From positions 1 through 64,000 of the forward strand of contig JACPSL010000002.1 of NCBI GenBank assembly GCA_016193285.1: a stretch of DNA of 64,000 nt, in the 5' to 3' direction. How positions within the stretch are numbered: position 1 is the first letter of the stretch; every line of letters begins with the position of its first letter. This document shows, one piece after another, positions 5,116-50,049 of the stretch. A program made the position numbers and the translations under genes. Source of the DNA: Candidatus Melainabacteria bacterium (GTDB lineage: Bacteria; Cyanobacteriota; Vampirovibrionia; 2-02-FULL-35-15). The notes under the pieces are model-generated. The model saw only the letters and a program-made list of their open reading frames with translations. It made no database searches and was not told the DNA's origin.

Positions 5116-5137
5116 TAGAGGAAAGATACTTTCAAAA

Positions 5138-8729: not shown

Positions 8730-8794
8730 CTTATCCTGCTTTCCAGCAGGACACAGTAAGACACCACAAACTACTATCTATATTGTTCTAACCC

Positions 8795-8868: not shown

Positions 8869-9151
8869 TTCTAGAGAATCAGAGAATCAGAAATCAGCTA
8901 CAACTCTAAGTTGTTAATATATTATATACCTCAATCAAGAAGTATGTATTCATTTTATGTAATTACTCAGGTGGCTCTGCGGTGACATAGCTCCTCGAGC
9001 CACCTTTCCATAGACCGCTCGGCTCGCCCAAATAAATTGGATCAAGCCTCGCTTTATTAAATAGCACAATTTCGTGAAGGATAACCTAAGATAAATTAAC
9101 ATGCTGAGTAGTTACCATTTCATGAAGTATGCTACGAAATTAAATCATATG

Positions 9152-9208: not shown

Positions 9209-12425
<3,217 letters not shown>

Positions 12426-20592: not shown

Positions 20593-21837
20593 ATGAATTA
20601 TAAAAAGAGGTTGATTGAGCCAGAAATATATAAACTTCTTAAAATCTTTCCTGTTGTTTCAATTACTGGACCAAGGCAATCAGGAAAAACAACCTTAATA
20701 AAAATAATTTCTAGTAAGTCAAAAAACTGGAAATATTATAATTTAGACAACAGGGAAATTTTGTTGAAGATAAAAGAAGATCCTTCTCTCTTTACAAACT
20801 CACTGAACTCTAACACAGCAATTGACGAAGCTCAAAAAGCTCCGGAATTATTCCATTCACTAAAAGAACTTGTCGATAGCGGATTTAAGCACAAAATTAT
20901 TATTTCAGGTTCTGCAAACTTTCTGCTTATGAAATCAATTACAGAATCTTTAGCAGGAAGAGTAGGCATTCTTGAATTACTGCCATTTTCTGTTTCAGAA
21001 GCTATCTCAAGCAGCAGCAAGAAGATAATAAAGCTTATGATTTCTTCTAAAGATATAATAAATTTTAAAAATAAGCTAGCCAGACTCAAGAAAACAAAGC
21101 AATCAGACATGTTGGAATTTATACTAAGAGGTGGATTTCCAAAAGTTCACGAACTAGATAAAAACCAGTCCAGCAAGTGGTTTGAATCATATATAAGCAC
21201 TTATATTGAAAAAGATTTAAGAGACTTATCTCAGATTGTAAATCTGGACAGTTTCCAGAAAGTATATAAAACTCTTGCTTTTCAGACAAGCAACATTTTA
21301 AACATAAATAACATTAGCTCAGATTTAGGAATCGATTCAAAGACTGTTAAAAAATATATTTCTCTTCTGGAGTCTTCATATCAGTGCAAATTAATTTATC
21401 CATTCTGTATGAAAGCAAACAAACAACTAGTTAAAAGACCTAAAGTACATTATCTGGATACAGGATTAATAAATTATTTTTATGAGAACCATACAAATGA
21501 GCAGATGCTCAATGGTGGAGAATGGGGAAAAATACTTGAGACATTTCTGTTTTCAGAGCTATACAAAGAAATAAAAGACATTACTCCAAAACCATCAATA
21601 AATTTTTGGAGAACAAGCAACGGTGCAGAAGTTGATTTTGTAATTGCCTCAGGGAAAAACATATACCCTATTGAAGTAAAATCAGGTTTTAAAATAAATC
21701 ATTATGAACTAAGAGGAATACAAAGCTTCATGGAAAGTTATCAAAATGTGCCTTTCGGAATTGTAATCTACAGAGGACAGGAACCAATATTAGTTGATAA
21801 AAAGATTATTGCCCTTCCATGGAATTTGGCTTTTTAA
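20593..21837 (+). CDS. AAA+ ATPase of the AAA_14 + DUF4143 family, copy 2
   Basis: Walker A ITGPRQSGKTT, the DUF4143 C-terminus (…GAEVDFVIAS…IEVKSG…). Confidence 0.8.
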   Translation: MNYKKRLIEPEIYKLLKIFPVVSITGPRQSGKTTLIKIISSKSKNWKYYNLDNREILLKIKEDPSLFTNSLNSNTAIDEAQKAPELFHSLKELVDSGFKHKIIISGSANFLLMKSITESLAGRVGILELLPFSVSEAISSSSKKIIKLMISSKDIINFKNKLARLKKTKQSDMLEFILRGGFPKVHELDKNQSSKWFESYISTYIEKDLRDLSQIVNLDSFQKVYKTLAFQTSNILNINNISSDLGIDSKTVKKYISLLESSYQCKLIYPFCMKANKQLVKRPKVHYLDTGLINYFYENHTNEQMLNGGEWGKILETFLFSELYKEIKDITPKPSINFWRTSNGAEVDFVIASGKNIYPIEVKSGFKINHYELRGIQSFMESYQNVPFGIVIYRGQEPILVDKKIIALPWNLAF

Positions 21838-25892: not shown

Positions 25893-27854
25893 TTACACTA
25901 TTTCCTTTACTGGTTCCTTATTCATTAATTCTATTGCTTCTTTTGCAAGATCAATAATTTGTGGATTCATATACGGTGCATTTTTAATATGACGCAAAAG
26001 ATCCATTGTCCTTCTTGTTGCACGAACAAGATCCCCCTCGTCTAAATTAGTAAGTCTAAGTAGATCTTCCCATCTTGTTTCTTCTTTACACCAAATTTCT
26101 ATTAAACCTGCAAGCTGAGGATTTATGTTTGCTGACATTTCTATATTGTAGTTTCTTTGAAGCTTAATTAAACTCTTGCTTATCTTCTGCATTGAAATAA
26201 AAGTATCTTCTACGTTTATTGATTGTTTTGCTCTTATATATATTCGAGGACGAGTCTCATCAATAGCAAGAGATGAAATGCATGCAGAGAATTCCTGTGG
26301 CTGTAGAACAAAATCACATTTCAATAATATCTCACTAATTAACAAAATATTTTCACCACGCAATGATGATGCCATTATTCCATGCTCAGTTGGAATATTG
26401 TCTTTTAAGTAACCAAGCTTAGTTAAAACCTTTGTTAAATTTAAAAATCCATCCCAATAAAAATCCTCATGACTGCTAAGCAAATATTGCCCAAAGCTTT
26501 TATTTAAAAGATCTTTTATTTGATCCATTGAATGATGTTGCAGAAGATTTAACGCCATTGAATAGTTTGGAGTAAACTGACTAGTAAGAGGATTAGCTGT
26601 AGCTGCTGCTAGTTTTGCAGCAAATGCTGGTGAATGATCAATAGTTTCTTTAATTACAACATTTCCAACTTTATCCATTCCTCTGCGTCCAGCTCTGCCA
26701 GACATTTGTAAAAATTCATTGCTTGTAAGATTCTTATGTCCCGCGCCTCCATGCTTTCCAAGATTACTTATCACAGTTGTTTTTGCTGGCATATTGATTC
26801 CTGCAGCAAGTGTTTCAGTTGCAAAGACAACCTTGATTAGACCTTTGCTAAAAAGTTCTTCTACAATTGTTTTCCATTGAGGTAAAAGTCCTGCATGGTG
26901 TACTGCCATTCCTTGATATAAAAACCCAAGATGTTTGTGTTTAAAAAGGTAATCATTCCCATATGTTTTTTCTTGAATTAGCTTTGATAATGTTTTTCTT
27001 TCATCTAGCGTCAGTAAATTAAAACCTAATTGTTGGCAATCTTTTAATGCAAGCTCACAACCTCGTCTTGAAAAAACAAAATAAATTGCAGGCAAAAGTC
27101 CTCTCTTATGAAGTTCTATTACTACATCAGGGATTCTTCCTTCCTTGCTACCTTTTCTTTTCATATCTTTAAACTTCTGCTTATGTGCTTTAAAAGAATC
27201 TTTATGGATTTTAAGTTGTGGATTTAACTCTTTATTTTGTAACAGTAATGGATAGAGATGGTTTTGTTTAAAATAATAAAACCTAAGTGGGACTGGTCTA
27301 TGAAAAGTTTCTATTAGTTTTGTTTTATTATGTATATTTGAAATCCAGTCTGTAAGCTCTTTTGCGTTTGCTATTGTAGCTGAAAGTGCAAGTACCTGAA
27401 GACCTGGTGGAGAATAAATTATGCTTTCTTCCCATACAGTTCCTCGCTCAGGGTCATTCATATAGTGACATTCATCTAAAACTAAGTATCTTAAGTGTTT
27501 TAAGTTTTCATCTACAGAGCCAAGCACTGTACCATAGAGCATATTTCTATAAATCTCTGTAGTCATAACAACAATTTGTGCATCACTGTTAACTGAAGTA
27601 TCACCAGTAATTATTCCAATATTTTCTTTGCCATATTTTTTCTGAAAGTCATGAAACTTTTGATTGCTCAGTGCTTTAAGCGGAGTCGTATAAAAAACTC
27701 TCTCACTTCCTTTTAAAGCTTCTTCAATAACAAACTCTGCAATTGCAGTTTTCCCGGATCCAGTAGGAGCGCTAACTACAACACTAACTCCAGATTTAAG
27801 AGCATTAATTGCTTCTTCTTGAAAAGGATCGAGGGTGAAGATGGCTGTCATCAT
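25893..27854 (-). CDS. superfamily-2 DEAD/DEAH-box (Ski2-like) helicase
   Basis: Motif I APTGSGKT, motif II DECH, motif III SAT and motif VI QMSGRAGRRG. Its start overlaps the AbiEii stop (TAATG). Confidence 0.75.
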   Translation of the reverse strand: MMTAIFTLDPFQEEAINALKSGVSVVVSAPTGSGKTAIAEFVIEEALKGSERVFYTTPLKALSNQKFHDFQKKYGKENIGIITGDTSVNSDAQIVVMTTEIYRNMLYGTVLGSVDENLKHLRYLVLDECHYMNDPERGTVWEESIIYSPPGLQVLALSATIANAKELTDWISNIHNKTKLIETFHRPVPLRFYYFKQNHLYPLLLQNKELNPQLKIHKDSFKAHKQKFKDMKRKGSKEGRIPDVVIELHKRGLLPAIYFVFSRRGCELALKDCQQLGFNLLTLDERKTLSKLIQEKTYGNDYLFKHKHLGFLYQGMAVHHAGLLPQWKTIVEELFSKGLIKVVFATETLAAGINMPAKTTVISNLGKHGGAGHKNLTSNEFLQMSGRAGRRGMDKVGNVVIKETIDHSPAFAAKLAAATANPLTSQFTPNYSMALNLLQHHSMDQIKDLLNKSFGQYLLSSHEDFYWDGFLNLTKVLTKLGYLKDNIPTEHGIMASSLRGENILLISEILLKCDFVLQPQEFSACISSLAIDETRPRIYIRAKQSINVEDTFISMQKISKSLIKLQRNYNIEMSANINPQLAGLIEIWCKEETRWEDLLRLTNLDEGDLVRATRRTMDLLRHIKNAPYMNPQIIDLAKEAIELMNKEPVKEIV

Positions 27855-28540
27855 TAACTCTCAAGTTTTACTCTCATCAAAAACACCACATCTTTTTTTA
27901 AGTTTTTCCTTGTCCATTCTTTTGTCTTTTCGTCCAGTAGTTCACCAATTCCCTGAAGAATATATTTTTCGTTTATTTTGTTTATAATTTCAATACATTG
28001 TTTTATGTATTCTTTAAGTGAAAGTCCTTTTCTCTTTTTAATTATTGTTTCATTTATATCCCAATTGTTTTTCAAGAAAAACCATATGTCGAAAATATCT
28101 CTGCTTGCTAGTTCTCTTCTATCAGACAGTGCACAGAGTTTATGTGCAAACATATCTTCTTTTATCATTACAAGCATAGAAATACCAAGATAATTTTTTA
28201 ATTCATATTTAGAGCCAAAATCTCTTCTGTTTATTTCCACCTTTATTTTTTGAGATCCTTTTGCGTAAGATAGTAGAAAAAATATAGTGTGTCTCTTTAA
28301 AAACTTGTCCTTGATTTCACCATATTCTTTAATTATGGCTTCAATCTTTTGAAAAACAAGTTCCTCTTTTTCTGAGTCAAGCAAATCAAAATCCAGATCA
28401 ACTGAGAACCTTTTAAGATCATAGAAAAGATAAGCAGCCGTCCCTCCTTTAAAGCCAAGAAGCGGACCTAAAGAAGTATCTGAATAAATCTCTTTAAGTA
28501 TTTGAAGTAGCATTGTTCTGTGTTTATTTATGTCCAGCAT
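27854..28540 (-). CDS. AbiEii/AbiGii-family nucleotidyltransferase toxin (type IV TA / abortive infection)
   Basis: LGFKGGTAAYLFYDLKRFSVDLDFDLL matches the DUF1814/AbiEii GGTAL…R.S.DlDf motif. It overlaps the upstream antitoxin gene by 17 bp. Confidence 0.75.
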   Translation of the reverse strand: MLDINKHRTMLLQILKEIYSDTSLGPLLGFKGGTAAYLFYDLKRFSVDLDFDLLDSEKEELVFQKIEAIIKEYGEIKDKFLKRHTIFFLLSYAKGSQKIKVEINRRDFGSKYELKNYLGISMLVMIKEDMFAHKLCALSDRRELASRDIFDIWFFLKNNWDINETIIKKRKGLSLKEYIKQCIEIINKINEKYILQGIGELLDEKTKEWTRKNLKKDVVFLMRVKLES

Positions 28541-29093
28541 ATTTCTTTAATCTCTTAGCAAGGTTTTTATTTTTATAAATAGGAAGAATTTGAAAGCAAA
28601 GATCCCACTTTATAGGTTTTAGATTGTCAAAGTAATATTCTCCATAAAGATAAAGGGTATCAAGAAATGCTCTTTCTTTAGATGCCACAAAGTATCCTTC
28701 CATTTTTTCAAGACCGGTTTTATTACTTAAAACAATATCTTTAATTTTTTTATAGACAATTCTGTTACCTCCACATGTTATTTCTCTTGTTTGATAACTG
28801 ATTACAAAAATACTTTTGTGGTATTGAAATATTATTCCTTCTTCTTCTAGAATAGTTTGAAGGCTAACATATGATGGTGTGTAAATTTTAGTTCCTAGTT
28901 CAAGCCTGTCATAGTTCTTGTCTTTAGCATAAATTCCCCTTCTTATTGCATACAACTTGCCGGTTTTTACATAGTAATTAATCTTACTTTTTACAAGATC
29001 TGTTTCTGTTTCACCCCAGATTAATGAGATATCTTTAAAAGTAAAGACCGTGTTTTTGGAGCTATATATTTTTAAAATATCAGATTTATCCAT
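28524..29093 (-). CDS. AbiEi-family antitoxin / transcriptional regulator
   Basis: N-terminal wHTH-like region (…FTFKDISLIWGETETDLVKSKINYYVKTGKLYAIRRGIY…). It is located and overlapping as the first gene of an AbiE pair. Confidence 0.65.
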   Translation of the reverse strand: MDKSDILKIYSSKNTVFTFKDISLIWGETETDLVKSKINYYVKTGKLYAIRRGIYAKDKNYDRLELGTKIYTPSYVSLQTILEEEGIIFQYHKSIFVISYQTREITCGGNRIVYKKIKDIVLSNKTGLEKMEGYFVASKERAFLDTLYLYGEYYFDNLKPIKWDLCFQILPIYKNKNLAKRLKKYAGHK

Positions 29094-30140: not shown

Positions 30141-30214
30141 CGGGCCGTGGCTCAGCTTGGTAGAGCACTTCCTTGGGGTGGAAGGGGTCGAGAGTTCAAA
30201 TCTCTCCGGTCCGA
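30141..30214 (+). tRNA. tRNA-Pro (anticodon GGG)
   Basis: Folded by hand. Acceptor CGGGCCG/CGGTCCG, D-stem GCTC/GAGC, anticodon stem CTTCC/GGAAG, anticodon loop TTGGGGT, T-arm GAGAG TTCAAAT CTCTC and discriminator A. Confidence 0.85.
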
Positions 30215-30292
30215 TTTTTGAAAATTAAAGCTCATCTCAAACAAATATTTGATAATCACGGTTCAAATCCCAGTGGATCTATTTAAAAATTA

Positions 30293-32293
30293 TCACCTTT
30301 GTTTAACGGTTTTTGTTTCAATTATCTTTTCACCGTCTTCTGCAAATTTTGTTATAGTATCCTCATAAGCATCTTCATAACGAAGCCACTTTCTCTCAAG
30401 TCTTAATAGGCGTTTTCCATTTGGACCAAATATTTCCTCAATAGGACCTTTATCAGCAACAACATATTTAATTACTTTCTTTTCAACAAGTTTTCCTTCT
30501 GCATTATATTTTATTTCTTCTCTACCATCTTTATTGTAAGTATGTTCTGTTTTAAAAAGCAATTTCCCTGAACCATCATATTCCTCATCTACAGAGCCAT
30601 CTTTATGGGTAACTTTCTTACTGGTTAGTTTGTCATCGCTATCAAATAATTCTACGGTATAAATATCTTTTTGGGAAGTCACAACCTTTTGCCCAGTATA
30701 TTTATTATTTTCATCATAATTTTTTGTTATAGTTGGTTCATCTTTACTTGTTACTTCTATTATCTTACCTGCAAATTCTCCGTTTATATATGTTTCTGTA
30801 ATAGCTTCAAAATCAGCTCTTCTACCATCAAATCTTATAGTTCTTATTGATCTTCTTTCTTTTAGTTTTTCATTTAAGTCAAATGTTTCACTAGTTGTTC
30901 CTGTTGAATCACTTGTTATTCTTTTTTTTAACTTTCCATAAGCATTATAAAATTCTTTAATTTCTTTGTTAGATCTACCATCATTGCCAGGAGTTCTTAA
31001 TTCAAGAGATGACCAGCAAAGCTTACCATCTTTATCGTAGCTCTTTCTTGTTTCAAGTAGTCTATCATGAGTGTATTTTGAAGTGATCTTCCCATCATAA
31101 ACACCTTTGAAATAGTGCTCTCTAACAGATTCAACTGGCTTACCAAATTTGTCAAAAACTGAAATAGTATATTTGCTGGTTATTAATTTTTTACCGTCTT
31201 TTATATTATTTTCTGTTTCTACTAAACCCACGAGATCTCTGTCGGCAGAATATTCTTTAACAGTTACAGTTTCCCTGTTATTTTCTTTATTATCTGCTGA
31301 GATATCAAAAGTCTTGACAATTTTTCCATCACAATCCCTAACAACAGTTCTTCCTAAAAGCTTGTCTTTAGAGTAAGTAGTAGCTATAGTTTGAAGTACT
31401 TTTCCTTTGCCATCTTTTATTGTTTTTTCCGAAAATGTACCATCTAAACTTATTTCTTCAATGCTGGATTCAACAAATTCTCCCTTTTTGTTTTTTACAG
31501 TTGCAATAACCGTTGTGCCTTTTATATGTGATTTTGTTTCTATAACTGTAGTTAGATCCTTATCTTTGTCTTTTTTAGTTTCAAGTTTATTGTAAACCCA
31601 GCCTTTTCCAGTACTCTTTTCAACTACAGTTGTTCCATCTTCTACAATTTTAATTGTTTCTTTATCTGTTAATTTTCCTGTTGCGTCTTTAGTTTCTGTA
31701 ACTGAAGATAAACGATCCTCGCTGATTTTTGTTACTGTTGTGGAAACTAATTTAAAATCTATGTTTTCTTCTTTTGTAGTTACTGTCAAACCATTTTCAC
31801 TATATTCTGTTGAAATTCTTGATTTTACTTTATAGTCACTGTCCATTTCTTGAACGTATTTGAATATTCTTTTTCCATTAGCATCAAAATCTACAGTAGT
31901 AAGGATAAGCCCATTATTGCTCCTTTTTGTAACACTTCTTTCCTTTAATCTCCCTAATTTATCATAAGTAAATTCTTCTTTTTCTTTCAACTTTTTGTCT
32001 TCACCAATAATTTCAATAAAAGCAAGTTTATCGTCCTTCAATTTTTTAACTTCCCTTCCTCTGCTTTTATCTAATTCAAATGGCTCGTCAGTAAGAAGAG
32101 GTAAAAGTTCTTTTGTGCTTTCTTTACCTTGAGGATCTGTGAAAGCCACAAATTGAATGTCACTGCTTATGAATTGATCATTATCAATTTCTTCAGTGGT
32201 AGGCTTTATTGTAATTTTTTTTTCTGTGCTAGTCTCAAAATTCGCTAATGATTTCTTTCCTAATATAATGATTGTTCCAATTAAATTAACCAT
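30293..32293 (-). CDS. YD-repeat (RHS-like repeat) protein, 666 aa, with no recognisable toxin tip
   Basis: YD-like units recur: YDKLGRL, YDKDGKL, YNAYGKL, YNAEGKL, EYDGSGKLLFKTEHTYNKDGRE. The protein is Lys/Thr/Asp-rich. Confidence 0.5.
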   Translation of the reverse strand: MVNLIGTIIILGKKSLANFETSTEKKITIKPTTEEIDNDQFISSDIQFVAFTDPQGKESTKELLPLLTDEPFELDKSRGREVKKLKDDKLAFIEIIGEDKKLKEKEEFTYDKLGRLKERSVTKRSNNGLILTTVDFDANGKRIFKYVQEMDSDYKVKSRISTEYSENGLTVTTKEENIDFKLVSTTVTKISEDRLSSVTETKDATGKLTDKETIKIVEDGTTVVEKSTGKGWVYNKLETKKDKDKDLTTVIETKSHIKGTTVIATVKNKKGEFVESSIEEISLDGTFSEKTIKDGKGKVLQTIATTYSKDKLLGRTVVRDCDGKIVKTFDISADNKENNRETVTVKEYSADRDLVGLVETENNIKDGKKLITSKYTISVFDKFGKPVESVREHYFKGVYDGKITSKYTHDRLLETRKSYDKDGKLCWSSLELRTPGNDGRSNKEIKEFYNAYGKLKKRITSDSTGTTSETFDLNEKLKERRSIRTIRFDGRRADFEAITETYINGEFAGKIIEVTSKDEPTITKNYDENNKYTGQKVVTSQKDIYTVELFDSDDKLTSKKVTHKDGSVDEEYDGSGKLLFKTEHTYNKDGREEIKYNAEGKLVEKKVIKYVVADKGPIEEIFGPNGKRLLRLERKWLRYEDAYEDTITKFAEDGEKIIETKTVKQR

Positions 32294-32387
32294 AACCCTC
32301 TATTCTATGTCTTACAATACAAGGCAATAAGCTAAAAATTTTTGATATTAATAAACTTCTTCAAAATAAAATTTCCTTAATTATTTG

Positions 32388-32492
32388 AAAGTAGTGAAAA
32401 ACACTAGGAGGATAGTTAAATCACGCAGCAGGAGCTAAGTCCGGTTATAAAAATATACCCTTTATACTCCATTAATTTAGTTCTCGCTTTGA
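32388..32492. repeat. ~105-bp repeat, copy A (≈85% identical to copy B at 33817..33912)
   Basis: Hand alignment of the shared blocks cactagg, tcacgcagcaggagc, ccattaatttagttctc and ctttg. Copy A ends 95 bp upstream of the YD-repeat gene start. Confidence 0.6.
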
Positions 32493-32547
32493 AAGAGCGA
32501 GGCTTGCTTTGTTTACAAAGTCTGCAATTAATCTTTTAGCTCAATGT

Positions 32548-33723
32548 TCATAAAACCCGACTTGTAGCTTTTATAATTTCGCCAACCAGATTTCTTAAGC
32601 TAACAAATGTAACTTCTATACTTCCATATTTCTTTTTGTACGTTCTATCAATATCATGAGAAACTACATAATTTAGACCTTTTTGATATGTTCTTCTGAA
32701 AATCTCTAAGTTGGAAGAATTAAAATTGTCTGATTTCCATTTGCATTCAATTGCTATCGGATCTTTGCCTCTTGGGGAAATAACAAAATCTATTTCATTC
32801 CCTTGTTTATTTCTCCAATACATTATTTTTTTCGTTTGTGTTTCTGCATTTATTTCATTTAAAACAAAGTGCTCCCACAATACTCCCATATCATCTGGTC
32901 TTAAAGAGTTCCAACTACGATAGTAACAAACAAAACCTGTATCAAATGCATACACTTTTGGGGCTTTTACTATTTCGTTTATTTTGTAGGTGCTAAAAGG
33001 CCTAACAATATTTGCTACAAATGTTTGATCTAAAATATTTAAGTAGTTATTAATAGTGACTCTGCTTACTTCACAAGGCTTAGCATATTTTGTTGCTTCA
33101 AAAATCCCACCACTATTTACAAACAAAAGTTCAATAAACTTTTGAAAAGAACTTTTCTTTTCAAGCTTAAATAATTCTTCTATGTCTTTAGACCAATATT
33201 CGCTTATCCATTCCTCAAACTCATACTCTGGTACCTTGTTCTGCAAAAAATTAGGTGGTAGCCCACCAAATAAAAATCTATGACTGTAGTCTTGATTATT
33301 AAAATTCTTTAGATCTTTAGTAATTAAAGGAGTGAGCCAAATTGAACATTTTCTTCCAGTAAGCGTATCTTTAAATTTCTTTGATGAACCAAGTGTTGAT
33401 GAACCAGTTGCAACAACTTTTATATCAGGGAAATAATCACTAGCTATCTTTAATAGCTCTGATGGGTTATCTAGCCTGTGAACTTCATCAAAGATAACTT
33501 TCTTCTTTTTTAATCCTTTTAGAAATAACTCGGGATTTTCGGCTTGTTTTCTGATTCCATAAAGCTCAAAGTCAAAGTATTCAATGTTTGGAATAGATTT
33601 GCATAGGTAGGTTTTTCCTACTCTTCTTACACCATTAAGCCATATTACAGATCTGCTTTTCCAAGCATTGTTTATCTTTTCTAACCAGAAATCTCTTTGG
33701 ACCATACGTAAGCATACTATCAT
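32548..33723 (-). CDS. AAA+ ATPase of the AAA_14 + DUF4143 family, copy 3
   Basis: Walker A LNGVRRVGKTY, Walker B VIFDEVH. The DUF4143 C-terminus has …GNEIDFVIS…IECKWKS…. Confidence 0.8.
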   Translation of the reverse strand: MIVCLRMVQRDFWLEKINNAWKSRSVIWLNGVRRVGKTYLCKSIPNIEYFDFELYGIRKQAENPELFLKGLKKKKVIFDEVHRLDNPSELLKIASDYFPDIKVVATGSSTLGSSKKFKDTLTGRKCSIWLTPLITKDLKNFNNQDYSHRFLFGGLPPNFLQNKVPEYEFEEWISEYWSKDIEELFKLEKKSSFQKFIELLFVNSGGIFEATKYAKPCEVSRVTINNYLNILDQTFVANIVRPFSTYKINEIVKAPKVYAFDTGFVCYYRSWNSLRPDDMGVLWEHFVLNEINAETQTKKIMYWRNKQGNEIDFVISPRGKDPIAIECKWKSDNFNSSNLEIFRRTYQKGLNYVVSHDIDRTYKKKYGSIEVTFVSLRNLVGEIIKATSRVL

Positions 33724-33816
33724 ATGGTTTAACTATATGCAATCAATCTTTCGTTTAGTGTAAGCTGGGAATGCAACAATAAAGCAAACCTGTCCCTGTG
33801 AGTAAGGATAAACAAT

Positions 33817-33912
33817 AGTGAAGAGCACTAGGGGATACATCACGCAGCAGGAGCCAAGCCTGGTATATAAATATGCTCTCTATATTCCATTAATTTAGTT
33901 CTCACTTTGTAC
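33817..33912. repeat. ~105-bp repeat, copy B (direct orientation relative to copy A)
   Basis: See copy A. It ends 94 bp upstream of the copy-3 ATPase start. Confidence 0.6.
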
Positions 33913-33928
33913 CTGAGGCCCGATTTTA

Positions 33929-34288
33929 CTATAGTTCAATATCTAAATGTAAAGCCATCCCTTTTTTTACACTGCTAAAGTCTTGTTCATTTAGAATGCC
34001 TATTTTTTTAATAAAATTATTTTTGCTTACTGTATAAACATGAGAACAAATTGCTGCACTTGGTTTATTTAGACCACTTTGTTTTGTTGGTTTAAGATAG
34101 ATGTAAATCTCATCGTATTGCTCTACCTTTGTAGATGTAGGAACAACTGTTATTGTGTCTAGTAAAGTACACCCCTCGTTGCTTTGAACAACTATTGAAG
34201 GTCTTGCAGTTTTGCCAAGCTCACCTCTGCGGGATGGCTCATAATTAACTAGCCATACTTCACCTTTTTTTATTTCTTTGTTATCCAA
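33929..34288 (-). CDS. MazF/PemK-family type II toxin (mRNA interferase)
   Basis: KGEVWLVNYEPSRRGELGKTARPSIVVQSN…VVPTST… matches the PemK/MazF fold pattern. It overlaps the upstream antitoxin gene by 8 bp. Confidence 0.7.
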   Translation of the reverse strand: MDNKEIKKGEVWLVNYEPSRRGELGKTARPSIVVQSNEGCTLLDTITVVPTSTKVEQYDEIYIYLKPTKQSGLNKPSAAICSHVYTVSKNNFIKKIGILNEQDFSSVKKGMALHLDIEL

Positions 34289-34556
34289 GACTTTTTGCTA
34301 CCTCAAATTGTGCTTTTTCAAGAGCTGACAATTCCTCTGCTGCTTTTGACTTAGCAAATCTGGCATATGCTTGAACACGTTTTAATTTCCTGTAAGCTTT
34401 AATAGCATCAGCTATTAATTCACTAACACTTCGGCCAGTCTTTTCTGCTTCCTTCTTAATCAACTTAGCAAGCTCATCGTCTAATGAGATTGAGATTTTT
34501 ATAGACATTTTCTTACCTCTTTTCCTACTTTTTATCCTACTATAAATCCTACCCAC
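34281..34556 (-). CDS. RHH (CopG/MazE-like) antitoxin; true start probably MSIKISISLDD near 34510
   Basis: ISISLDDELAKLIKKEAEKTGRSVSELIADAIKAY has a ribbon-helix-helix pattern. It is the first gene of the pair. Confidence 0.6.
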   Translation of the reverse strand: MGRIYSRIKSRKRGKKMSIKISISLDDELAKLIKKEAEKTGRSVSELIADAIKAYRKLKRVQAYARFAKSKAAEELSALEKAQFEVAKSLG

Positions 34557-34590
34557 CTATCATTAAAACCTAATTAAATAAGGTATTTAG

Positions 34591-34631
34591 CCGCGTAGCG
34601 TAAACCACGGGAGCTTGCTCCCGAGTAGTTT
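34591..34631. repeat. GC-rich palindromic element, copy 1 (hairpin CGGGAGCTTGCTCCCG plus a second small GC hairpin)
   Basis: Its reverse complement AACTACTCGGGAGCAAGCTCCCG closely matches AACTACTCGGGGGCAAGCCCCCG at 63588..63612. Confidence 0.55.
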
Positions 34632-34645
34632 AGAAACGTAACGAA

Positions 34646-34662
34646 TGTAACCTTGGGTTACA
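34646..34662. promoter_or_regulatory. 17-bp palindrome TGTAACC-TTG-GGTTACA upstream of the mazE-like gene
   Basis: Seen directly. Candidate antitoxin operator. Confidence 0.25.
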
Positions 34663-34692
34663 AAGTTTGATGACTATTCAGTACTTTTTAAA

Positions 34693-35001
34693 TTACCAGT
34701 CCTTTACTACGTGATCCTTAAAGTAGTTAAAATTAATGTCTTTAATTTTAAAATTCTCTATTTGTGGACTTAAGAGAAAAAGATTAATCTTTTTTTGATT
34801 GGTAATTTTTGCATCTGCTAAAAATGAGTAAAATTTTTCAAGATTTTTTGCATGATTCATTGTAGGTGTTTCATTTGATTTTATTTCTATGACATCCAAT
34901 TTATCCCCATGTTCAATTAGCAAATCAACCTCAACACCATTGCTTTCTTTATAGAAAAAAAAGTTTTTATGTCCTCCAGTTGCAAAGTTTCTTTTTACCA
35001 A
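34693..35001 (-). pseudogene. truncated DUF4143 ATPase (C-terminal ~100 aa only), copy 4
   Basis: …NGVEVDLLIEHGDKLDVIEIKSNETP… is the DUF4143 C-terminal block. No Walker A region is present and no N-terminal half lies upstream. Confidence 0.5.
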
Positions 35002-40814: not shown

Positions 40815-42017
40815 ATGAAAAATAAAAGTAAACTAAAAATATTTCTAATGCTTATACTTATAATAGTATTATTACTTAACCAAATTGTCTTTGCAGAAGA
40901 AAATAAAGACATAAATAAAGTTAAACTTGAAGCAGTTCTTACTCCTATGTATGTAATTGGTCCTGGAGATGAGTTAACAATCATTGATAGAACGTTAAGA
41001 GAAGTATTTGGACAGGTTGAACAATATACTTTAAAGGTTTCAACAGATGGTTATATTTCTATACCATTACCAGATGGTAAACAAGAAAATCTTTTAGCTG
41101 CAGGTTATACACTTAATGAACTTTCAAAAGAAGTTAGAGAATTATTTGGAAGAACTTTGAAAAATCCACTTGTATTTGTTCAGATTAGTAGATATAGACC
41201 ACTAAACATATATATTGGAGGTGAGATTGTTAAACCAGGTGTTTACAAAATTGAACCTTCAGCAAGTACTGTAGGCGTATCAATAAGTGAAGCTATTCAA
41301 TTAGCTGGTGGCTTAAAACCAAGAGCTAATATAAAAGCTTTAATAATTACAAGAGGATCAAATGCAGAAAAGAAAAGTATTAACTTACATGCATACTTAT
41401 CAGGGGAAGATCCTACTCAGGATATTAATTTACAACCTGGAGACACAATATATGCAAACCCTGCTGAGAACCAAGCAGATCAAGCACAAAGCCATGTCAA
41501 ACTTCTTGGAAAACTTGCATATCAAGATGTACCAATTAGCATAACAGGAGAAGTAAAAACTTCAGGCAATTATAATCTAACCAACGATGCAAGCTTTTTT
41601 GATGCAATAGGCAAGGCAGGAGGTCTAACAAATGTTGGTTCCCTGAAAAAAGTAAAAGTTTCAAGATATGATGATGACGGTGTTTACAGAATATTTAAAG
41701 TAAACATAAATGATTTACTTCTTAAAGGAGCTACATTTGATCAAATTGCACTTAGACCAAACGATACTATTGAAATTGAAGCTTCAAAAGTGAAACAAAC
41801 TAAAAGTTTCTTTAGACAGGTTGGTGTTAATTTAATCCCAATTGTTGCTGGTGCTGCTAGTGCAAGCTTTGGACAATTTGTTGTTCAAGACAACTTATTT
41901 AATAGAAGTTCCAGGCTTCGTGGTTCAACAAAAGCTAGTGGTTCAGGTGGTAACTTTACTTCACCAATAACAATTATAGGCAATACCGAAAGAATTATTA
42001 ATGAAAACAGTAAATAA
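40815..42017 (+). CDS. polysaccharide export protein (Wza-like; Poly_export + SLBB domains)
   Basis: A signal peptide, then VIGPGDELTII (Poly_export motif) and repeated soluble-ligand-binding beta-grasp-like segments. It is next to wzc. Confidence 0.7.
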   Translation: MKNKSKLKIFLMLILIIVLLLNQIVFAEENKDINKVKLEAVLTPMYVIGPGDELTIIDRTLREVFGQVEQYTLKVSTDGYISIPLPDGKQENLLAAGYTLNELSKEVRELFGRTLKNPLVFVQISRYRPLNIYIGGEIVKPGVYKIEPSASTVGVSISEAIQLAGGLKPRANIKALIITRGSNAEKKSINLHAYLSGEDPTQDINLQPGDTIYANPAENQADQAQSHVKLLGKLAYQDVPISITGEVKTSGNYNLTNDASFFDAIGKAGGLTNVGSLKKVKVSRYDDDGVYRIFKVNINDLLLKGATFDQIALRPNDTIEIEASKVKQTKSFFRQVGVNLIPIVAGAASASFGQFVVQDNLFNRSSRLRGSTKASGSGGNFTSPITIIGNTERIINENSK

Positions 42018-42762
42018 AATTCTAGTTTTAATGCTTATAGCTTTTATTTGCTTTTATAGGATTCCTGTTTGTGCTCAAAATGTAAGTGAAATTAATTTAG
42101 ATATTTACAAAATAAATTTAGATTCCTTAGATAAATTTAATTTAATAAAAAAAGAAGAGATAATAGATCTTGTCTTATTAAATGATGTTTTTACAGAAGG
42201 AAAAAGATTTGCAATGTCATCAAATCTTCAGCTTACAACAAACAAACTTTACTTAAAAGATGGTCAAGAAATTCTTATTTCAGCAACATCTCCAGTAATT
42301 ACTAGTATCCATCCACCACATGCAAATAATAACTCTTCTGGAATAGCAAGAGCATTACTAGGACTATCAGTTGCAAGTACTCCATTAACATTTGGTACAA
42401 GCATAGGTATAAGCTTTTTAATCAGTGGACTACTTTCTGCATACCAGAATGGAATATCTGATTTTATCTGGGGAGGATTAAACGGGGGAGGATTTTCATT
42501 TGTAGAACATATATTTCGAAAACAACCGGACATATTTTTAACTAGTGGAACAAAAATCCCATTTGTTTTAAATGAAGATATAAAAATCAGTAAAGGAATA
42601 GAAAAAGAAAATATTGAATATATTGATATCGGTAAAGAAGAAGCTATTAAAAAAATCAATAAATTACTAGAATGGGGAGACTTAACGGGAGCTCTGGAAC
42701 TATCTGTAAAAACAGGCCAAACAGAAATATACAATGAAATCATAAAAAAGATATCATTATAG
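42001..42762 (+). CDS. hypothetical secreted protein (253 aa), translationally coupled to the wza-like gene
   Basis: A signal-like N-terminus and a 17-bp overlap with the upstream gene. Confidence 0.4.
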   Translation: MKTVNKILVLMLIAFICFYRIPVCAQNVSEINLDIYKINLDSLDKFNLIKKEEIIDLVLLNDVFTEGKRFAMSSNLQLTTNKLYLKDGQEILISATSPVITSIHPPHANNNSSGIARALLGLSVASTPLTFGTSIGISFLISGLLSAYQNGISDFIWGGLNGGGFSFVEHIFRKQPDIFLTSGTKIPFVLNEDIKISKGIEKENIEYIDIGKEEAIKKINKLLEWGDLTGALELSVKTGQTEIYNEIIKKISL

Positions 42763-42779
42763 ATTTAAAATATATCTTA

Positions 42780-45047
42780 ATGTCTACCACTAATAAAGCT
42801 TGGAAGTTATTAATTGATTTAATTTTTAATAACAAAAATAATATAGCTATAGAAGATACTAAAGATTTTTTAACACTTGTAAAAAAACATTCACTTGAAA
42901 ATTATACAAACTTTTTAAGAGGTATAAAACTTCGTGAGACTTTATTAAATAATCCTTGGGAATGGGATTTTTTAAAAGTACTTTCAAATGCTTTACAAGA
43001 AGACATTCAAGTTCTTTTATTAAAAGGTGCATGTTCAAGATTAATAGGAATTTACAAATACCCTGCTTTGCGTGAAAGCCAAGATCTGGATATTTTTATT
43101 TACAGTCCATGCAAAACATTTGATTTTAAACAATTTTTAGAAAGTTTAGCAAATCAAAAAATAATATCCTTAAGTAATGACTGGAAAGCACAGTTAAAAA
43201 GGCTTGGTAATGTACTTGCTCTTTACAATGATCATCAAATTGATATTCATTTTAAATTATTTTCTCCTTTAGGGACTGTATCTAAAACTACTAAACAAAA
43301 CAAGAAACTTGAAGGTGAAATTATTCAAAGAGCAAAAAGCCATGAAAAATTATCAAATATTAAAATAATGTCAAATGAAGATTTTTGGCTTTATAATATC
43401 TTTCAATTTATAAAAGATTTTCCTTTCTCAAAAATTCAACTAATTCTTGATTCTTATTTAATTATTAAAGGAAATAAAACAAGTCTTAAGTTACTAAGTG
43501 AACATGCCATAAAAACAAAACAAAGCTTTTTATTTAAAATTAGTTTATTTTTTCTGTATCAATGCTGCAATCATTCGAATAGTGACAATCTTAAAATAAA
43601 TCCTTTAGAAAAATATTGTTTTAATATCGAGAACATTATAAATGCAAGTAAATTTAGTGTAAAAAGCAGGTTACTAGATGCTCTTTCAAAAGGAATTTTT
43701 CTAGCAAATGGCAATATATTTTTTTCAATATTTAACTCATTACATTTTTTCATAGTAAACAATTTTTTATTAAGTACAATAGACGAAAATCCTTTTACAA
43801 TTAATTCGTTTCTAAACTTTTTTACTAAACTGTTTTATGTTTTAAGTAAAACCAAGAACTCAATAAAATCTTTTAAATCTTTTCAAGAAAATACAGAAAT
43901 CAAGATTTATTCAGAAGAAAAAAAATTAATTTCTGTCCAACTAGATAACCTTAAAATTACCTTTAATGTACCTGGTGAGTTCTATGACAAACTAAAATAT
44001 ATTTGGTCAGGTTTTATAAGTAATGATCATCTAGATAAAGTAATTAATATTGAGAAAGTAACTAATAATTCAAAGCCAGAAAATACTTATGAAGTAGCTT
44101 TTAACAACAATTATTTTTATATGAAACTATCAGATAATGTCCATGGAAAGACAGATTTAGAAGGATTAGGAAAACTTTTTGCAAACACTTTTTGGGATGT
44201 ACGTACTTTTGCTTTATGTTTTTTTAGAGCTTTAAGCTTTACAAAAAATAATTTGCTACTAGTACATTCCGGTGCTATAAGAATTAACAATGGAACATTT
44301 CTTTTTCCTGGAGGATCAAGTTGTGGCAAAACGACATTTTTTAATCTCTTAGTTAAAAATGGCGCCTGTGGTATTAATGATGATACAGTACTTTTAAAAG
44401 AAGAAAATGATACCTGGTATGTCTATCCAACACCATTTATGAGTAAAAACCAAGAACCAGTTATATCTAACAAGAGTAGACTTTCAGGAATAATAGATTT
44501 AATTAAAGTAGCTGGAGGATATGAAATTACTTCTTTAGACATAAATTACTTGTTAGCAATATTACTAAACAATTCAATTGCAGACTTTACTATAGATGAT
44601 GGAGGAATTATAAGGGCTAAAACTACAGAAAAAATAATAAACCTTTCTAAACAATTAACTCATTTAGCACAAATTAAGTTTTCATTAGAAGATGATAAAA
44701 GATTAATAAGCTTAATACGTGAGTGGATAAATAACCCAAATAAAAATATTAAATTTGGATCAAGCTTATTACCTCTTGTTCAGTTACGTGGAGATAGTAT
44801 GATGCCTTCATTTAAGAATGGTGACTTACTTCTTGTAGAAGAGGCTTACCCAAACAATATAAAAATAAATGATATGGTTTGCTTTACTAATGAATTTAAT
44901 TTTCCTCAAGTACACAGAACAAAATATTTAATAAGACATAAAAACAATATTGTTTTAATTACAAAAGGTGATAACAGGATCTTTTACGATAATCCAATTT
45001 CAGTTAAACATGATAAAAAAATACTTAAAGTAATCTCTAAACTGTAA
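42780..45047 (+). CDS. tri-domain protein: PF14907-like nucleotidyltransferase (N), HPr-kinase C-terminal-like P-loop domain (middle), S26/S24 signal-peptidase-like domain (C)
   Basis: N-terminus RESQDLDIFIYSPC…IDIHFKLF (R.s.DlDllv…lH). Middle HSGAIRINNGTFLFPGGSSCGKTTFFNLLVKNGACGINDDTVLL (HprK_C-like HG…G.SG.GKS…DD). C-terminus VQLRGDSMMPSFKNGDLLLVEE (SPase I-like GDSM.P…GD…V). Confidence 0.6.
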   Translation: MSTTNKAWKLLIDLIFNNKNNIAIEDTKDFLTLVKKHSLENYTNFLRGIKLRETLLNNPWEWDFLKVLSNALQEDIQVLLLKGACSRLIGIYKYPALRESQDLDIFIYSPCKTFDFKQFLESLANQKIISLSNDWKAQLKRLGNVLALYNDHQIDIHFKLFSPLGTVSKTTKQNKKLEGEIIQRAKSHEKLSNIKIMSNEDFWLYNIFQFIKDFPFSKIQLILDSYLIIKGNKTSLKLLSEHAIKTKQSFLFKISLFFLYQCCNHSNSDNLKINPLEKYCFNIENIINASKFSVKSRLLDALSKGIFLANGNIFFSIFNSLHFFIVNNFLLSTIDENPFTINSFLNFFTKLFYVLSKTKNSIKSFKSFQENTEIKIYSEEKKLISVQLDNLKITFNVPGEFYDKLKYIWSGFISNDHLDKVINIEKVTNNSKPENTYEVAFNNNYFYMKLSDNVHGKTDLEGLGKLFANTFWDVRTFALCFFRALSFTKNNLLLVHSGAIRINNGTFLFPGGSSCGKTTFFNLLVKNGACGINDDTVLLKEENDTWYVYPTPFMSKNQEPVISNKSRLSGIIDLIKVAGGYEITSLDINYLLAILLNNSIADFTIDDGGIIRAKTTEKIINLSKQLTHLAQIKFSLEDDKRLISLIREWINNPNKNIKFGSSLLPLVQLRGDSMMPSFKNGDLLLVEEAYPNNIKINDMVCFTNEFNFPQVHRTKYLIRHKNNIVLITKGDNRIFYDNPISVKHDKKILKVISKL

Positions 45048-45211
45048 AAAGTCTACTGTTTTCTAACTACCAGTACCAGCTCTATAAACATAAGAAGATT
45101 TTTCTTTTTCTAGATTCTCTGCAATATTTAATAATTTTTCTTGTTCTTTTGTAATAAAATAAAAATCTTTACTCTCCATTAATTTCTCCTTTTTTAACAT
45201 TATTATATACA

Positions 45212-46195
45212 ATGATCCATGTTATGAACATCTGTAATCTCACAGAAGATAGATTTGATGGCTATTTTAAGTTTTTGGATCGAGCTTATCCAAATAGGAA
45301 TTTAAAAGAACTATTTAAAAATGAAATATTAAAAAAAGCAAATGTAATAATTTCAGTAAATAAAAATAGTCAAATAGTTGGTCATCTTACTTGTTATCCT
45401 TGTGAATTTTATTTAAATAATGTAATCACTAGTGGTAATTTTTACTGTAATTTTCTAGTTCTTCAAGAACATAGAAATAAAGGCATTGGAAGCTCCTTAG
45501 TTAAAAAAGCTACTACAGAGCATAAACCTTGGTTTGCCTTTGGTGTAAATAATTTCTCTAAAAGTTTAGCTTATAAGATTGGCAAAATAATTGGTTCTTC
45601 ACAGAAATTTGTATGGTTTAGGAACTCTTATATTCCAATAAAAATTTTTACAAACCCACTAAGAAAGTATTCTATTATTAGTGACACAAAAGAACTTACT
45701 GACTCAATTTATACAGGCAGAAACTATTTTACAAATCTTAAATCAATAAATAACTGGCAAGATTATTTTTGGGGAAATAATACATTGCAATTTTCTAGAC
45801 CATATAAATTCTTAGAGAGAAAGATTTTTAGTAAAATTAATAAACATACTTTTTATTACTTTGAGAATTCCAGTCCACAAGTATATTTTACAGTTAAGAA
45901 GTCATACATAAGAGGATTAAATGTATTAGAAATTGTTGATTACAAAGTCCCAAATCATACTAGTGAACTCTTTATCGCAATAATTAATGCTGCTAAATAT
46001 TTAACTAAAAAACTAAAATTTGATGGTGTAATTTTTGAAAGTTCACATCAATACTTTGATAGAATACTAAGTTTTAACAATTTCATAAAAATTGGGAAAC
46101 CAAGGCTTATAATATCAAATATAGAAACTAATATTTCACAAGAAAAAATAAAGAATAGAGATTTTCTTTACATAACACCAATAGACAGCCCTTGA
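45212..46195 (+). CDS. GNAT-family acetyltransferase domain protein with a C-terminal extension
   Basis: The acetyl-CoA motif A-like is VLQEHRNKGIGSSLVKKA. Confidence 0.5.
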   Translation: MIHVMNICNLTEDRFDGYFKFLDRAYPNRNLKELFKNEILKKANVIISVNKNSQIVGHLTCYPCEFYLNNVITSGNFYCNFLVLQEHRNKGIGSSLVKKATTEHKPWFAFGVNNFSKSLAYKIGKIIGSSQKFVWFRNSYIPIKIFTNPLRKYSIISDTKELTDSIYTGRNYFTNLKSINNWQDYFWGNNTLQFSRPYKFLERKIFSKINKHTFYYFENSSPQVYFTVKKSYIRGLNVLEIVDYKVPNHTSELFIAIINAAKYLTKKLKFDGVIFESSHQYFDRILSFNNFIKIGKPRLIISNIETNISQEKIKNRDFLYITPIDSP

Positions 46196-46202
46196 TGAAA
46201 AA

Positions 46203-47138: not shown

Positions 47139-47150
47139 ACAAATAAGAGC

Positions 47151-49971: not shown

Positions 49972-50049
49972 TATCTTTAAAATCTGTTCTTCCATGCACA
50001 ATATTGTATAAAGTTTAATCTTCTACATTGCTTCTCGAATTTAAAAGGA

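What the first reader, a model, noticed from the sequence alone, without database searches (positions are those of the whole stretch)
32388..33912. ~105-bp direct repeat bracketing a DUF4143 ATPase gene; each copy sits 94-95 bp upstream of a minus-strand start codon
Copies at 32388..32492 and 33817..33912 are ~85% identical and share the blocks CACTAGG, TCACGCAGCAGGAGC and CCATTAATTTAGTTCTC. They flank the copy-3 AAA_14/DUF4143 ATPase gene. Each copy ends at the same distance upstream of the next minus-strand gene: 95 bp before the YD-repeat gene and 94 bp before the ATPase gene. The sequence between repeat and start codon is unrelated. Two readings fit. Either a ~1.4-kb unit (ATPase gene plus one repeat) was inserted duplicatively, making these ATPase genes cassette-like selfish elements. 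Or the two genes share a fixed-distance cis-regulatory / 5'-leader element, or a small RNA gene present in two copies. A weaker, rearranged resemblance (GGCTCTGCGGTGA…CAAGCCTCGCTTT) occurs upstream of the copy-1 ATPase (8975..9075).
Basis: seen in the sequence. Interest (0 to 1): 0.6.

Follow-up and report, generated by a model that had tools for sequence, protein, structure and literature searches.

The report
Cassette-junction repeat beside tRNA-Pro
The two repeats are copies of a 75-150-base element that separates small gene cassettes in same-direction arrays next to a proline tRNA gene in Melainabacteria; it looks like the junction left by repeated site-specific insertion, and each copy also holds a tiny conserved protein-coding frame of unknown role.

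Summary
The repeat is real: window 32384-32492 (copy A) and 33779-33923 (copy B), 82% identical. It is not a local duplication, an sRNA or a fixed-distance leader. A local profile finds about 30 further copies ("E") in Candidatus Melainabacteria MAGs and metagenome contigs. Within each locus all copies point the same way and lie 0.66-2.7 kb apart. Between them sit one- to three-gene cassettes: HicAB, MazF/RHH, ParE/RelB, DUF2442/DUF4160, GNAT, Mrr, DUF4143. In four contexts, this window included, the array starts at the 3' end of tRNA-Pro(GGG), in the tRNA's orientation. E has a sharp, constant 3' end (GGCCCGA; the tRNA ends GGTCCGA) and a ragged 5' end. DNA that follows the tRNA in one genome follows an E copy in another. 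The best reading is therefore att-type junctions left by serial site-specific insertion of integrase-less cassettes. This resembles integrons and tRNA-island accretion, but E forms no attC hairpin and no integrase lies in the arrays. On the opposite strand E carries a 16-21-codon ORF (ME[HY]KGHIYIPDLAPAA) with clear codon-level conservation; its function is unknown. Copy A is decayed: frameshifted, core lost. No recombinase was identified and nothing was tested experimentally.

The parts
30141..30214 (+). tRNA-Pro(GGG), the anchor of the array. Its last 7 nt (30208-30214) are GGTCCGA.
   Evidence: Rfam and ARAGORN. The same tRNA sits at the start of the arrays in L004, L015 and L023, in the same orientation as the E copies.
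30215..30292 (.). DNA just after the tRNA. It is homologous to the DNA that follows an E copy in locus L007. It contains a T-arm-like remnant, GGTTCAAATCCCAG, at 30260-30273.
   Evidence: Alignment A4. Homology begins immediately after CCGA.
30293..32293 (-). Cassette 1 gene: 666-aa protein with a weak YD-repeat hit and no Pfam domain.
32384..32492 (+). E copy A. It is decayed: short 5' form, a GC-rich hairpin variant at its 3' side (tail to about 32525), and the terminal core GGCCCGA is lost.
   Evidence: nhmmer E = 6e-30; sequence; comparison with the L008/L020 variants.
32416..32472 (-). Micro-ORF of copy A, frameshifted by a 1-nt insertion (MEYKGYIFITGLSSCCVI*).
32548..33723 (-). Cassette 2 gene: AAA_14/DUF4143 ATPase.
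   Evidence: Pfam. A promoter-like site of its own lies at 33746-33719.
33779..33923 (+). E copy B: full 'long form', 90% identical to copies in other genomes.
   Evidence: nhmmer E = 2e-44; identities.
33840..33890 (-). Micro-ORF of copy B: MEYREHIYIPGLAPAA*.
   Evidence: Translation; codon-position test across 23 copies.
33917..33923 (+). Terminal core GGCCCGA, the proposed crossover region. It matches 6 of the last 7 nt of tRNA-Pro(GGG).
   Evidence: All copies end here, and at least 13 different sequences follow it.
33929..34556 (-). Cassette 3: MazF toxin (33929-34288) and RHH antitoxin (34281-34556; the likely true start is at 34509).
   Evidence: Pfam; gene calls.
34557..34680 (.). The place where a third E copy is expected. 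34557-34592 matches the E-proximal leader of the TA cassettes in L008, L003 and L015. The E sequence itself is then replaced by unrelated GC-rich hairpin DNA.
   Evidence: Alignment A6.
34693..35001 (-). C-terminal fragment of a DUF4143 gene (pseudogene remnant) at the decayed far end of the array, before the Tad pilus operon.
   Evidence: Pfam.

Best explanation
The two repeats are junction elements ('E') of a short, partly decayed cassette array anchored at the 3' end of tRNA-Pro(GGG).

Proposed mechanism (inferred, not shown):
- Each mobile unit is a small DNA circle holding one to three genes plus one E.
- A site-specific recombinase acting in trans joins the core at the 3' end of E (GGCCCGA) to the similar 3' end of the tRNA gene (GGTCCGA), or to the core of an E already in the array.
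- Each insertion leaves 'tRNA | cassette genes - E | what was there before'. Repeated events therefore build a same-direction array.
- In this window the array reads: tRNA-Pro | 666-aa gene | E(A, decayed) | DUF4143 ATPase | E(B) | MazF/RHH | (E lost).

Shown here: the family exists; the copies are co-oriented; the arrays start at the tRNA; the 3' boundary is sharp; tRNA ends and E ends are interchangeable junctions; and the same cassettes occur with different left-hand neighbours.

Inferred: the circular intermediate, the crossover point and the recombinase.

E also encodes, on the opposite strand, a 16-21-codon peptide that selection maintains. Its role is unknown. My guess is a cis-acting function at each junction, because many copies are kept intact. 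It could, for example, couple translation to read-through into the next minus-strand cassette.
For: - Family size and layout: an exact-pattern scan of 185,579 species genomes hit only two Candidatus Melainabacteria MAGs. A metagenome scan gave 12 further true loci. A local nhmmer profile gave 34 hits (27 distinct) at E < 1e-10, and later 4 more in L023-L025.
- Co-orientation: every locus with two or more copies has them all on one strand (7 in L017; 3 each in L004, L015, L008 and L023; 2 each in L005, L012 and the window). That is 15 or more concordant orientations. Spacing is 0.66-2.7 kb.
- Anchor: tRNA-Pro(GGG) lies at the array start, in the same orientation, in the window, L004, L015 and L023.
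- Boundaries: the 3' boundary is constant while the 5' boundary falls at about 147, 97 or 72 nt.
- Junction equivalence: the window's tRNA flank matches the flank after E in L007. The L015 tRNA flank matches the flanks after E in L004 and L017.
- Cassette shuffling: the HicAB cassette follows at least six different left-hand cassettes.
- Cassette content is typical of integron-like arrays: TA pairs, GNAT, Mrr, DUF4143.
- Not a local duplication: copies A and B are not each other's closest relatives.
- Micro-ORF: 816 synonymous against 397 non-synonymous codon differences in one frame, and 5-7% synonymous in four of the other five frames. The antisense frame that shares wobble positions shows about 50% but contains stop codons. 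The stop codon position is retained.
Against: - No integrase lies inside or next to any array in about 100 kb of flanking sequence.
- Only 6 of the last 7 nt, or 10 of the last 15 nt, of E resemble the tRNA end. That is short for an att identity block.
- No circular form, empty site or presence/absence polymorphism was seen. Other contigs carrying the window's proteins show the same arrangement.
- A pure recombination-site model does not explain the conserved ORF.
- Only 5-20 kb around each hit could be read, so scattered copies elsewhere in these genomes cannot be excluded.
- Most loci come from related MAGs, so the copies are not independent samples.
Confidence: 0.6

Rival explanations
1. 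E is mainly a small protein-coding gene (16-35 aa). Its spread with neighbouring genes, and the array form, result from ordinary homologous recombination and duplication between copies, not from a dedicated site-specific system.
For: Strong codon-position signal and a retained stop codon in about 25 copies. At 75-150 nt and about 90% identity, the copies are long enough for RecA-dependent exchange.
Against: Homologous recombination cannot make the tRNA-Pro 3' end equivalent to the E 3' end, since they share only 7-15 nt. It also does not explain the sharp common 3' boundary next to a ragged 5' boundary. There is no consistent start codon. A peptide acting in trans would not need many intact copies.
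Confidence: 0.15
2. E is the attC site of an integron or CALIN: single-stranded hairpin sites recombined by an IntI integrase.
For: Co-oriented repeats of 75-150 nt separate one- to three-gene cassettes rich in TA and GNAT genes. In some copies a GATAAAC...GTTTATC inverted pair brackets the long form.
Against: Neither strand folds into a hairpin. MFE is -6.6 to -13.5 kcal/mol, with z-scores from -1.7 to +0.5 against shuffles. There is no RYYYAAC/GTTRRRY pair at the ends, no IntI nearby, and the Xer-like proteins of the window fall far below the integron-integrase cut-offs. The array starts at a tRNA end, not at an attI site.
Confidence: 0.07
3. E is a cis-regulatory leader or attenuator, or a small RNA.
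For: In roughly half the cassettes the genes lie downstream of E on the ORF strand. A short hairpin follows the ORF stop codon, in both the type-1 and type-2 5' extensions. Selection acting on every copy fits a cis-acting role.
Against: About half the copies have no co-oriented downstream gene, and distances vary. There is no Rfam hit, no promoter- or terminator-like consensus inside E except in the aberrant copy A, no fold signal and no covariation.
Confidence: 0.1
4. A local duplication of a roughly 1.4-kb 'ATPase plus repeat' unit, or a MITE-like transposable repeat.
For: Two copies flank one gene in this window.
Against: The copies belong to different subtypes and are each closer to copies in other genomes. 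There are no terminal inverted repeats or target-site duplications on reading the ends. Copies occur only in co-oriented arrays. There is no second ATPase copy adjacent.
Confidence: 0.03

Closest known systems
Integron cassette arrays, including sedentary chromosomal integrons and CALINs
   Same: Co-oriented repeated sites separate short one- to three-gene cassettes. Content is dominated by toxin-antitoxin pairs, GNAT acetyltransferases and unknown genes. Each cassette carries its site at one end, and the crossover lies at the far edge of that site. The same cassettes appear in different orders in different genomes.
   Different: No palindromic attC hairpin, no R''/R' consensus, no IntI nearby. 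Insertion is anchored at a tRNA 3' end instead of attI. The site contains a conserved micro-ORF.
Tandem accretion of tRNA-targeting integrative elements (tycheposons in Prochlorococcus islands, bioRxiv 10.1101/2020.12.28.424599; CIME-type integrase-less elements, from my own knowledge)
   Same: Successive insertions at one tRNA gene push older elements outward. Units are separated by direct repeats, and decayed remnants accumulate (paper text read).
   Different: In those systems the repeats are partial tRNA copies of about 40 nt, and the elements carry integrase and replication genes with several kb of cargo. Here only the last 7-15 nt resemble the tRNA. The repeat is a non-tRNA 75-150-nt module, and the units are 0.7-2.7 kb with no integrase.
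E. coli tyrT distal repeats (rtT RNA and the tpr small protein; recalled from memory, not tested beyond Rfam)
   Same: Tandem repeats downstream of a tRNA gene, each ending with a copy of the tRNA 3' end, associated with a very small ORF.
   Different: Those repeats are head-to-tail with no genes between them, and the ORF is on the tRNA strand. No match to the Rfam RtT family was found.
Short ORF in integron attI1 (ORF-11) that aids translation of the first cassette (recalled from memory)
   Same: A tiny ORF embedded in a recombination site at the head of cassettes.
   Different: That ORF is a single copy at attI, and its peptide sequence is not known to be conserved. Here every junction has one, and the peptide sequence is conserved.

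Membership tests
Integron attC / CALIN | Imperfect inverted repeat that folds as single-stranded DNA into a long hairpin (R''-L'' paired with L'-R') | tested here: not met
   DNA folds of long, medium and short forms on both strands gave MFE of -6.6 to -13.5 kcal/mol, z from -1.7 to +0.5 against shuffles, and unpaired ends.
Integron attC / CALIN | RYYYAAC at the 5' end and GTTRRRY at the 3' end, with crossover at G|TT | tested here: not met
   All copies end in GGCCCGA. The sequences that follow are diverse and T-rich. A GATAAAC/GTTTATC pair occurs only in long forms that happen to precede HicAB cassettes.
Integron attC / CALIN | Co-oriented sites separating short cassettes | tested here: met
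   cassette gene content.
Integron attC / CALIN | IntI integrase with attI at the head of the array (not required for CALIN) | tested here: not met
   The head of the array is tRNA-Pro(GGG) in four contexts. No integrase lies in the flanks. The window's tyrosine recombinases score 62 and 27 bits against integron-integrase cut-offs of 265 and 435.
tRNA-targeting integrative island / tandem accretion | Insertion at the 3' end of a tRNA gene, with attL/attR-type equivalent junctions | tested here: met
   Alignments A4 and A5; arrays start at tRNA-Pro(GGG).
tRNA-targeting integrative island / tandem accretion | Direct repeats that are partial copies of the tRNA (tens of nt) | tested here: inconclusive
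   Only 6/7 (or 10/15) terminal nt match the tRNA end. The rest of E is unrelated to the tRNA.
tRNA-targeting integrative island / tandem accretion | An integrase gene carried by the element | tested here: not met
   No Phage_integrase or recombinase domain in any cassette examined.
Structured small RNA / riboswitch-like leader | Match to a known family, or conserved secondary structure with covariation | tested here: not met
   No Rfam match, even at E <= 10. Fold z-scores from -1.6 to +1.2. RNAalifold found 0 compensatory pairs.
tmRNA or partial tmRNA repeat | tRNA-like domain plus tag reading frame on the same strand | tested here: not met
   ARAGORN and Rfam found no tmRNA in the window or in 20 loci. 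The ORF lies on the strand opposite to the tRNA-like end.
MITE / transposable repeat | Terminal inverted repeats, target-site duplication, dispersed insertion in both orientations | tested here: not met
   The ends (ATGATAAAC... and ...GGCCCGA) are not inverted repeats, no duplicated flanks are seen, and copies occur only in co-oriented arrays.
Small protein-coding gene | Open frame with excess of synonymous change and a conserved stop | tested here: met
   816 synonymous against 397 non-synonymous; minimum changes per codon position 9/12/23; codon table.
Small protein-coding gene | Conserved start codon and ribosome-binding site; evidence of expression | tested here: inconclusive
   ATG is present in most copies but is AGA in three. 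An upstream GTG is present in most but is GTC in two. No Shine-Dalgarno motif is seen. Expression cannot be tested with these tools.

The most novel reading that the evidence does not exclude
Melainabacteria carry a previously undescribed gene-capture platform that works like an integron but was built differently. The 3' end of tRNA-Pro(GGG) serves as the primary insertion site. Integrase-less mini-cassettes are marked by a double-stranded att-type element that also encodes a conserved micro-peptide needed in cis, for recombination control or for cassette expression. A recombinase encoded elsewhere in the genome drives the exchange.
Probability: 0.3. Interest if true: 0.8.

Novelty: new variant of a known kind. 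Interest (0 to 1): 0.62.

Why it matters
If the model holds, non-photosynthetic relatives of cyanobacteria shuffle toxin-antitoxin, defence and accessory genes through a cassette system that standard integron finders cannot see, because it has no attC hairpin and no IntI. That would widen the known ways bacteria build cassette arrays.

It would also give a simple marker for finding such arrays in metagenomes: the E profile next to tRNA-Pro.

The conserved micro-ORF inside a recombination junction is unusual. It offers a testable link between translation and either cassette expression or cassette mobility.

For this window specifically, the finding explains the repeat: two junctions of a three-cassette array that is decaying.

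Tried and rejected
- Rfam at gathering and permissive thresholds on the window and five loci: only the two tRNAs.
- tmRNA or partial tmRNA, suggested by the ...LAPAA* ending: ARAGORN was negative and the ORF is on the wrong strand.
- Structured RNA on either strand: no fold signal and no covariation.
- attC-like single-stranded hairpin: rejected.
- E as the displaced 3' end of a larger protein gene (icd/phage-21 style), or the C-terminal piece of a split SSV-type integrase. A search of 5.8 billion protein clusters returned only 35-66-aa ORF calls that run into E from unrelated flanks. No long ORF in any locus resembles the peptide. The open frame between the junction and the ATG is only 11 codons, which is not significant.
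- In-frame insertions (21, 42, 57 nt) as evidence of translation from the junction: weakened by a 53-nt out-of-frame insertion in L017_2682.
- Pfam and NCBIfam for the peptide: nothing.
- E in viral contigs, plasmids or phages: none.
- Promoter or terminator consensus inside E: none, apart from the aberrant hairpin of copy A.
- Alternative arrangements of the window's own locus in other samples: all identical.
- Homology between the 666-aa gene and the 662-aa cassette gene of L008: none.
- I first mislabelled the common 119-aa cassette as MazEF. It is HicAB.
- Literature searches found tycheposons as the nearest described process and nothing on such arrays in Melainabacteria.
Full report
**Observation.** The repeat is present. 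The AAA_14/DUF4143 gene at 32548-33723 (minus strand; Pfam) is flanked by two similar stretches. The blocks TCACGCAGCAGGAGC and CCATTAATTTAGTTCTC each occur exactly twice in the 64-kb window. Shuffles give 0.4-0.6 matches even with three mismatches allowed. With a family profile the copies span 32384-32492 (A, E = 6e-30) and 33779-33923 (B, E = 2e-44), and nothing else in the window matches. They are 82% identical. The 'resemblance' at 8975-9075 is only a shared 11-nt GC-rich hairpin motif.

**A family, not a pair.** An exact two-block pattern scanned over one genome per species (185,579 species) hit only two Candidatus Melainabacteria MAGs. A looser pattern over JGI metagenomes gave 18 loci, 12 of them true copies and 6 chance hits. 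The window itself matches a groundwater-type metagenome contig. From 17 copies I built a local nhmmer profile. It found 34 hits (27 distinct sequences) below 1e-10 in these loci and four more in loci fetched later. I call the element E.

**Arrays.**
- Within every locus all copies lie on one strand. There are seven in the 9 kb of L017 (L003 is the same sequence), three each in L004, L015, L008 and L023, and two each in L005, L012 and the window.
- Successive copies are 0.66-2.7 kb apart.
- Between them lie one to three genes, on either strand:
  - Mrr-like nuclease
  - GNAT acetyltransferases
  - DUF2442+DUF4160
  - ParE/RelB
  - a PBECR3-like nuclease with DUF2283
  - HicA/HicB
  - MazF/RHH
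  - DNA-alkylation repair enzyme
  - Sel1 and Ig-like proteins
  - DUF4143 ATPases
- Several short contigs end inside E (L012, L015, L008), as expected for a multi-copy repeat.

**Anchor and junctions.** In the window, L004, L015 and L023 the array begins right after tRNA-Pro(GGG), and the E copies have the tRNA's orientation.
- All E copies share a sharp 3' end...CTTTGTACCTGAGGCCCGA. Their 5' ends fall at about 147, 97 or 72 nt.
- The tRNA ends ...CCGGTCCGA. Six of the last seven and ten of the last fifteen bases match E, and some E copies read GGTCCGA or GTCCCGA.
- At least 13 unrelated sequences follow the E end.
- The 78 nt that follow the tRNA in the window are homologous to what follows E in L007, starting exactly after CCGA.
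- The DUF2442 cassette that follows the tRNA in L015 follows E copies in L004 and L017.
- The HicAB cassette, which starts CGTTTATCTTAACC..., follows at least six different left-hand cassettes and E forms. Its own right-hand E variant stays with it.

So a cassette consists of its genes plus the E on their right, and the exchange point is at the E 3' end, which is equivalent to the tRNA 3' end. Homologous recombination cannot make a tRNA end and an E end interchangeable on 7-15 shared bases. Site-specific recombination can.

**Coding signal.** Variation among copies is concentrated at every third base of one frame on the window's minus strand. That frame reads ATG GAG CAT AAA GGG CAT ATT TAC ATA CCT GAT TTA GCT CCT GCT GCA TGA, which gives MEHKGHIYIPDLAPAA*.
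- Over 23 distinct copies there are 816 synonymous against 397 non-synonymous codon differences in this frame. Four of the other five frames show 5-7% synonymous. The antisense frame that shares wobble positions shows about 50% but contains stop codons. Minimum changes per codon position are 9/12/23.
- The stop codon stays in place even where the C-terminus differs (APAA, AAA, IPIA, EEVA) and where the stop itself differs (TGA, TAG, TAA).
- The start is uncertain. ATG is present in most copies but is AGA in three that still keep the peptide. A GTG five codons upstream is present in most.
- No Pfam or NCBIfam family matches. No longer protein ends with this sequence among 5.8 billion clusters; only 35-66-aa spurious calls entering from the flanks were found.
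- In the window, copy B encodes MEYREHIYIPGLAPAA* at 33890-33840. Copy A is frameshifted by one inserted base.

**What E is not.**
- Rfam has no matching family.
- RNA and DNA folds of either strand are no better than shuffles.
- Alignment folding finds no compensatory pairs. The apparent G-U 'wobbles' are third-position transitions.
- There is no attC-type hairpin and no R''/R' consensus.
- There is no tmRNA.
- There is no promoter or terminator consensus within E, apart from the atypical hairpin of copy A.
- E is absent from IMG/VR contigs, PLSDB plasmids and GenBank phages.

**The window's locus.** The order is: tRNA-Pro(GGG) 30141-30214 | 666-aa gene (minus strand) | E-A | DUF4143 ATPase (minus strand) | E-B | MazF/RHH (minus strand).
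- After MazF/RHH comes the leader that precedes E in the TA cassettes of L008, L003 and L015. Where E should follow there is unrelated GC-rich hairpin DNA.
- Next come a DUF4143 fragment and the Tad pilus operon.
- E-A belongs to the subtype with a GC-rich hairpin insert (as in L008 and L020). It has lost the terminal core and is frameshifted.
- E-B is an intact long form. Each copy is closer to copies in other genomes (86-90%) than to the other (82%), so the pair is not a local duplication.
- The ATPase has its own promoter-like site in unique DNA.
- The 94/95-nt coincidence has no counterpart elsewhere.
- The two other DUF4143 genes of the window have no E.

**Mechanism (inferred).** Small circular cassettes, each with one E, recombine through the E core with the 3' end of tRNA-Pro(GGG) or with a resident E core. 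Serial events give co-oriented arrays, and decay removes cores and ORFs, as in E-A.
- The recombinase is not in the arrays.
- The window has two tyrosine recombinases elsewhere: a 372-aa integrase at a classic island on tRNA-Pro(UGG), and a 255-aa Xer-like protein 5 kb upstream of tRNA-Pro(GGG). Neither is linked to arrays in other loci.
- The micro-ORF is kept in many copies, which argues for a function in cis at each junction. A short hairpin follows its stop codon in both 5'-extension types, so translation-dependent read-through into the next minus-strand cassette is one possibility. I could not test it.

**Comparison and novelty.** The behaviour resembles integron cassette arrays, and also the tandem accretion of tRNA-targeting elements described for tycheposons. 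It fails defining tests of both. There is no attC hairpin or IntI. The repeats are not partial tRNAs, and the units carry no integrase. Literature searches found no description of such arrays in Melainabacteria. I rate it a new variant of a known kind.

**Limits.**
- All evidence is comparative.
- Only 5-20 kb per locus could be read.
- The loci come from related organisms.
- No recombinase, circle or empty site was observed.

Noticed in passing
window 3812-8868: A classic integrative island at tRNA-Pro(UGG) (8795-8868, minus strand). A Xer-like integrase with an HTH_17 domain (7611-8729) lies directly beside the tRNA 3' end, followed by an N6_N4 DNA methylase (6343-7515) and a GmrSD nuclease (5138-6361). 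No attR repeat was found by exact match of 11 nt or more.
   Followed up: partly
window 8965-9060, 32482-32506, 34593-34650; also inside E copies of L008, L020, L011, L017 (2682-2836) and L023: Short GC-rich hairpin-forming inserts in an otherwise 32% GC genome. The motif CAAGCCTCGCT occurs 3 times in the window against 0.27 expected. They look like a separate small palindromic repeat family that inserts into intergenic DNA, including into E.
   Followed up: partly
window 30260-30273; L003 3440-3454; L005; L007: A T-arm-like remnant, GGTTCAAATCCCAG, lies 45 nt after tRNA-Pro(GGG), and at the same 45-nt distance after E copies in three other loci. It may be the relic of an older tRNA-end attachment site.
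   Followed up: partly
window 42000-50000: A block of 25-27% GC, against 30-36% elsewhere, covering six plus-strand ORFs. It is possibly a horizontally acquired surface-polysaccharide-type island.
   Followed up: no
window 9209-10426, 20593-21837, 32548-33723, 34693-35001: Three full-length AAA_14/DUF4143 ATPase genes and one C-terminal fragment within 64 kb. Only the third gene and the fragment lie in the E array. DUF4143 cassettes recur in the arrays of L004, L015 and L023.
   Followed up: partly
window 27854-29093: An AbiEi/AbiEii type IV toxin-antitoxin pair lies just upstream of the Band_7 gene and tRNA-Pro(GGG). Together with MazF/RHH this makes the neighbourhood rich in TA and defence genes.
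   Followed up: no
L026-L028 (about 11000-19500 in L026): A distant HicB homologue (67% identity) sits in an ordinary integrase-bearing element (HTH_17+Phage_integrase, Prim-Pol/AAA_25). A tRNA-Asp gene lies beside the integrase in L027 and L028. The element has no E copies, which shows that the HicAB cargo also travels on conventional integrative elements.
   Followed up: partly
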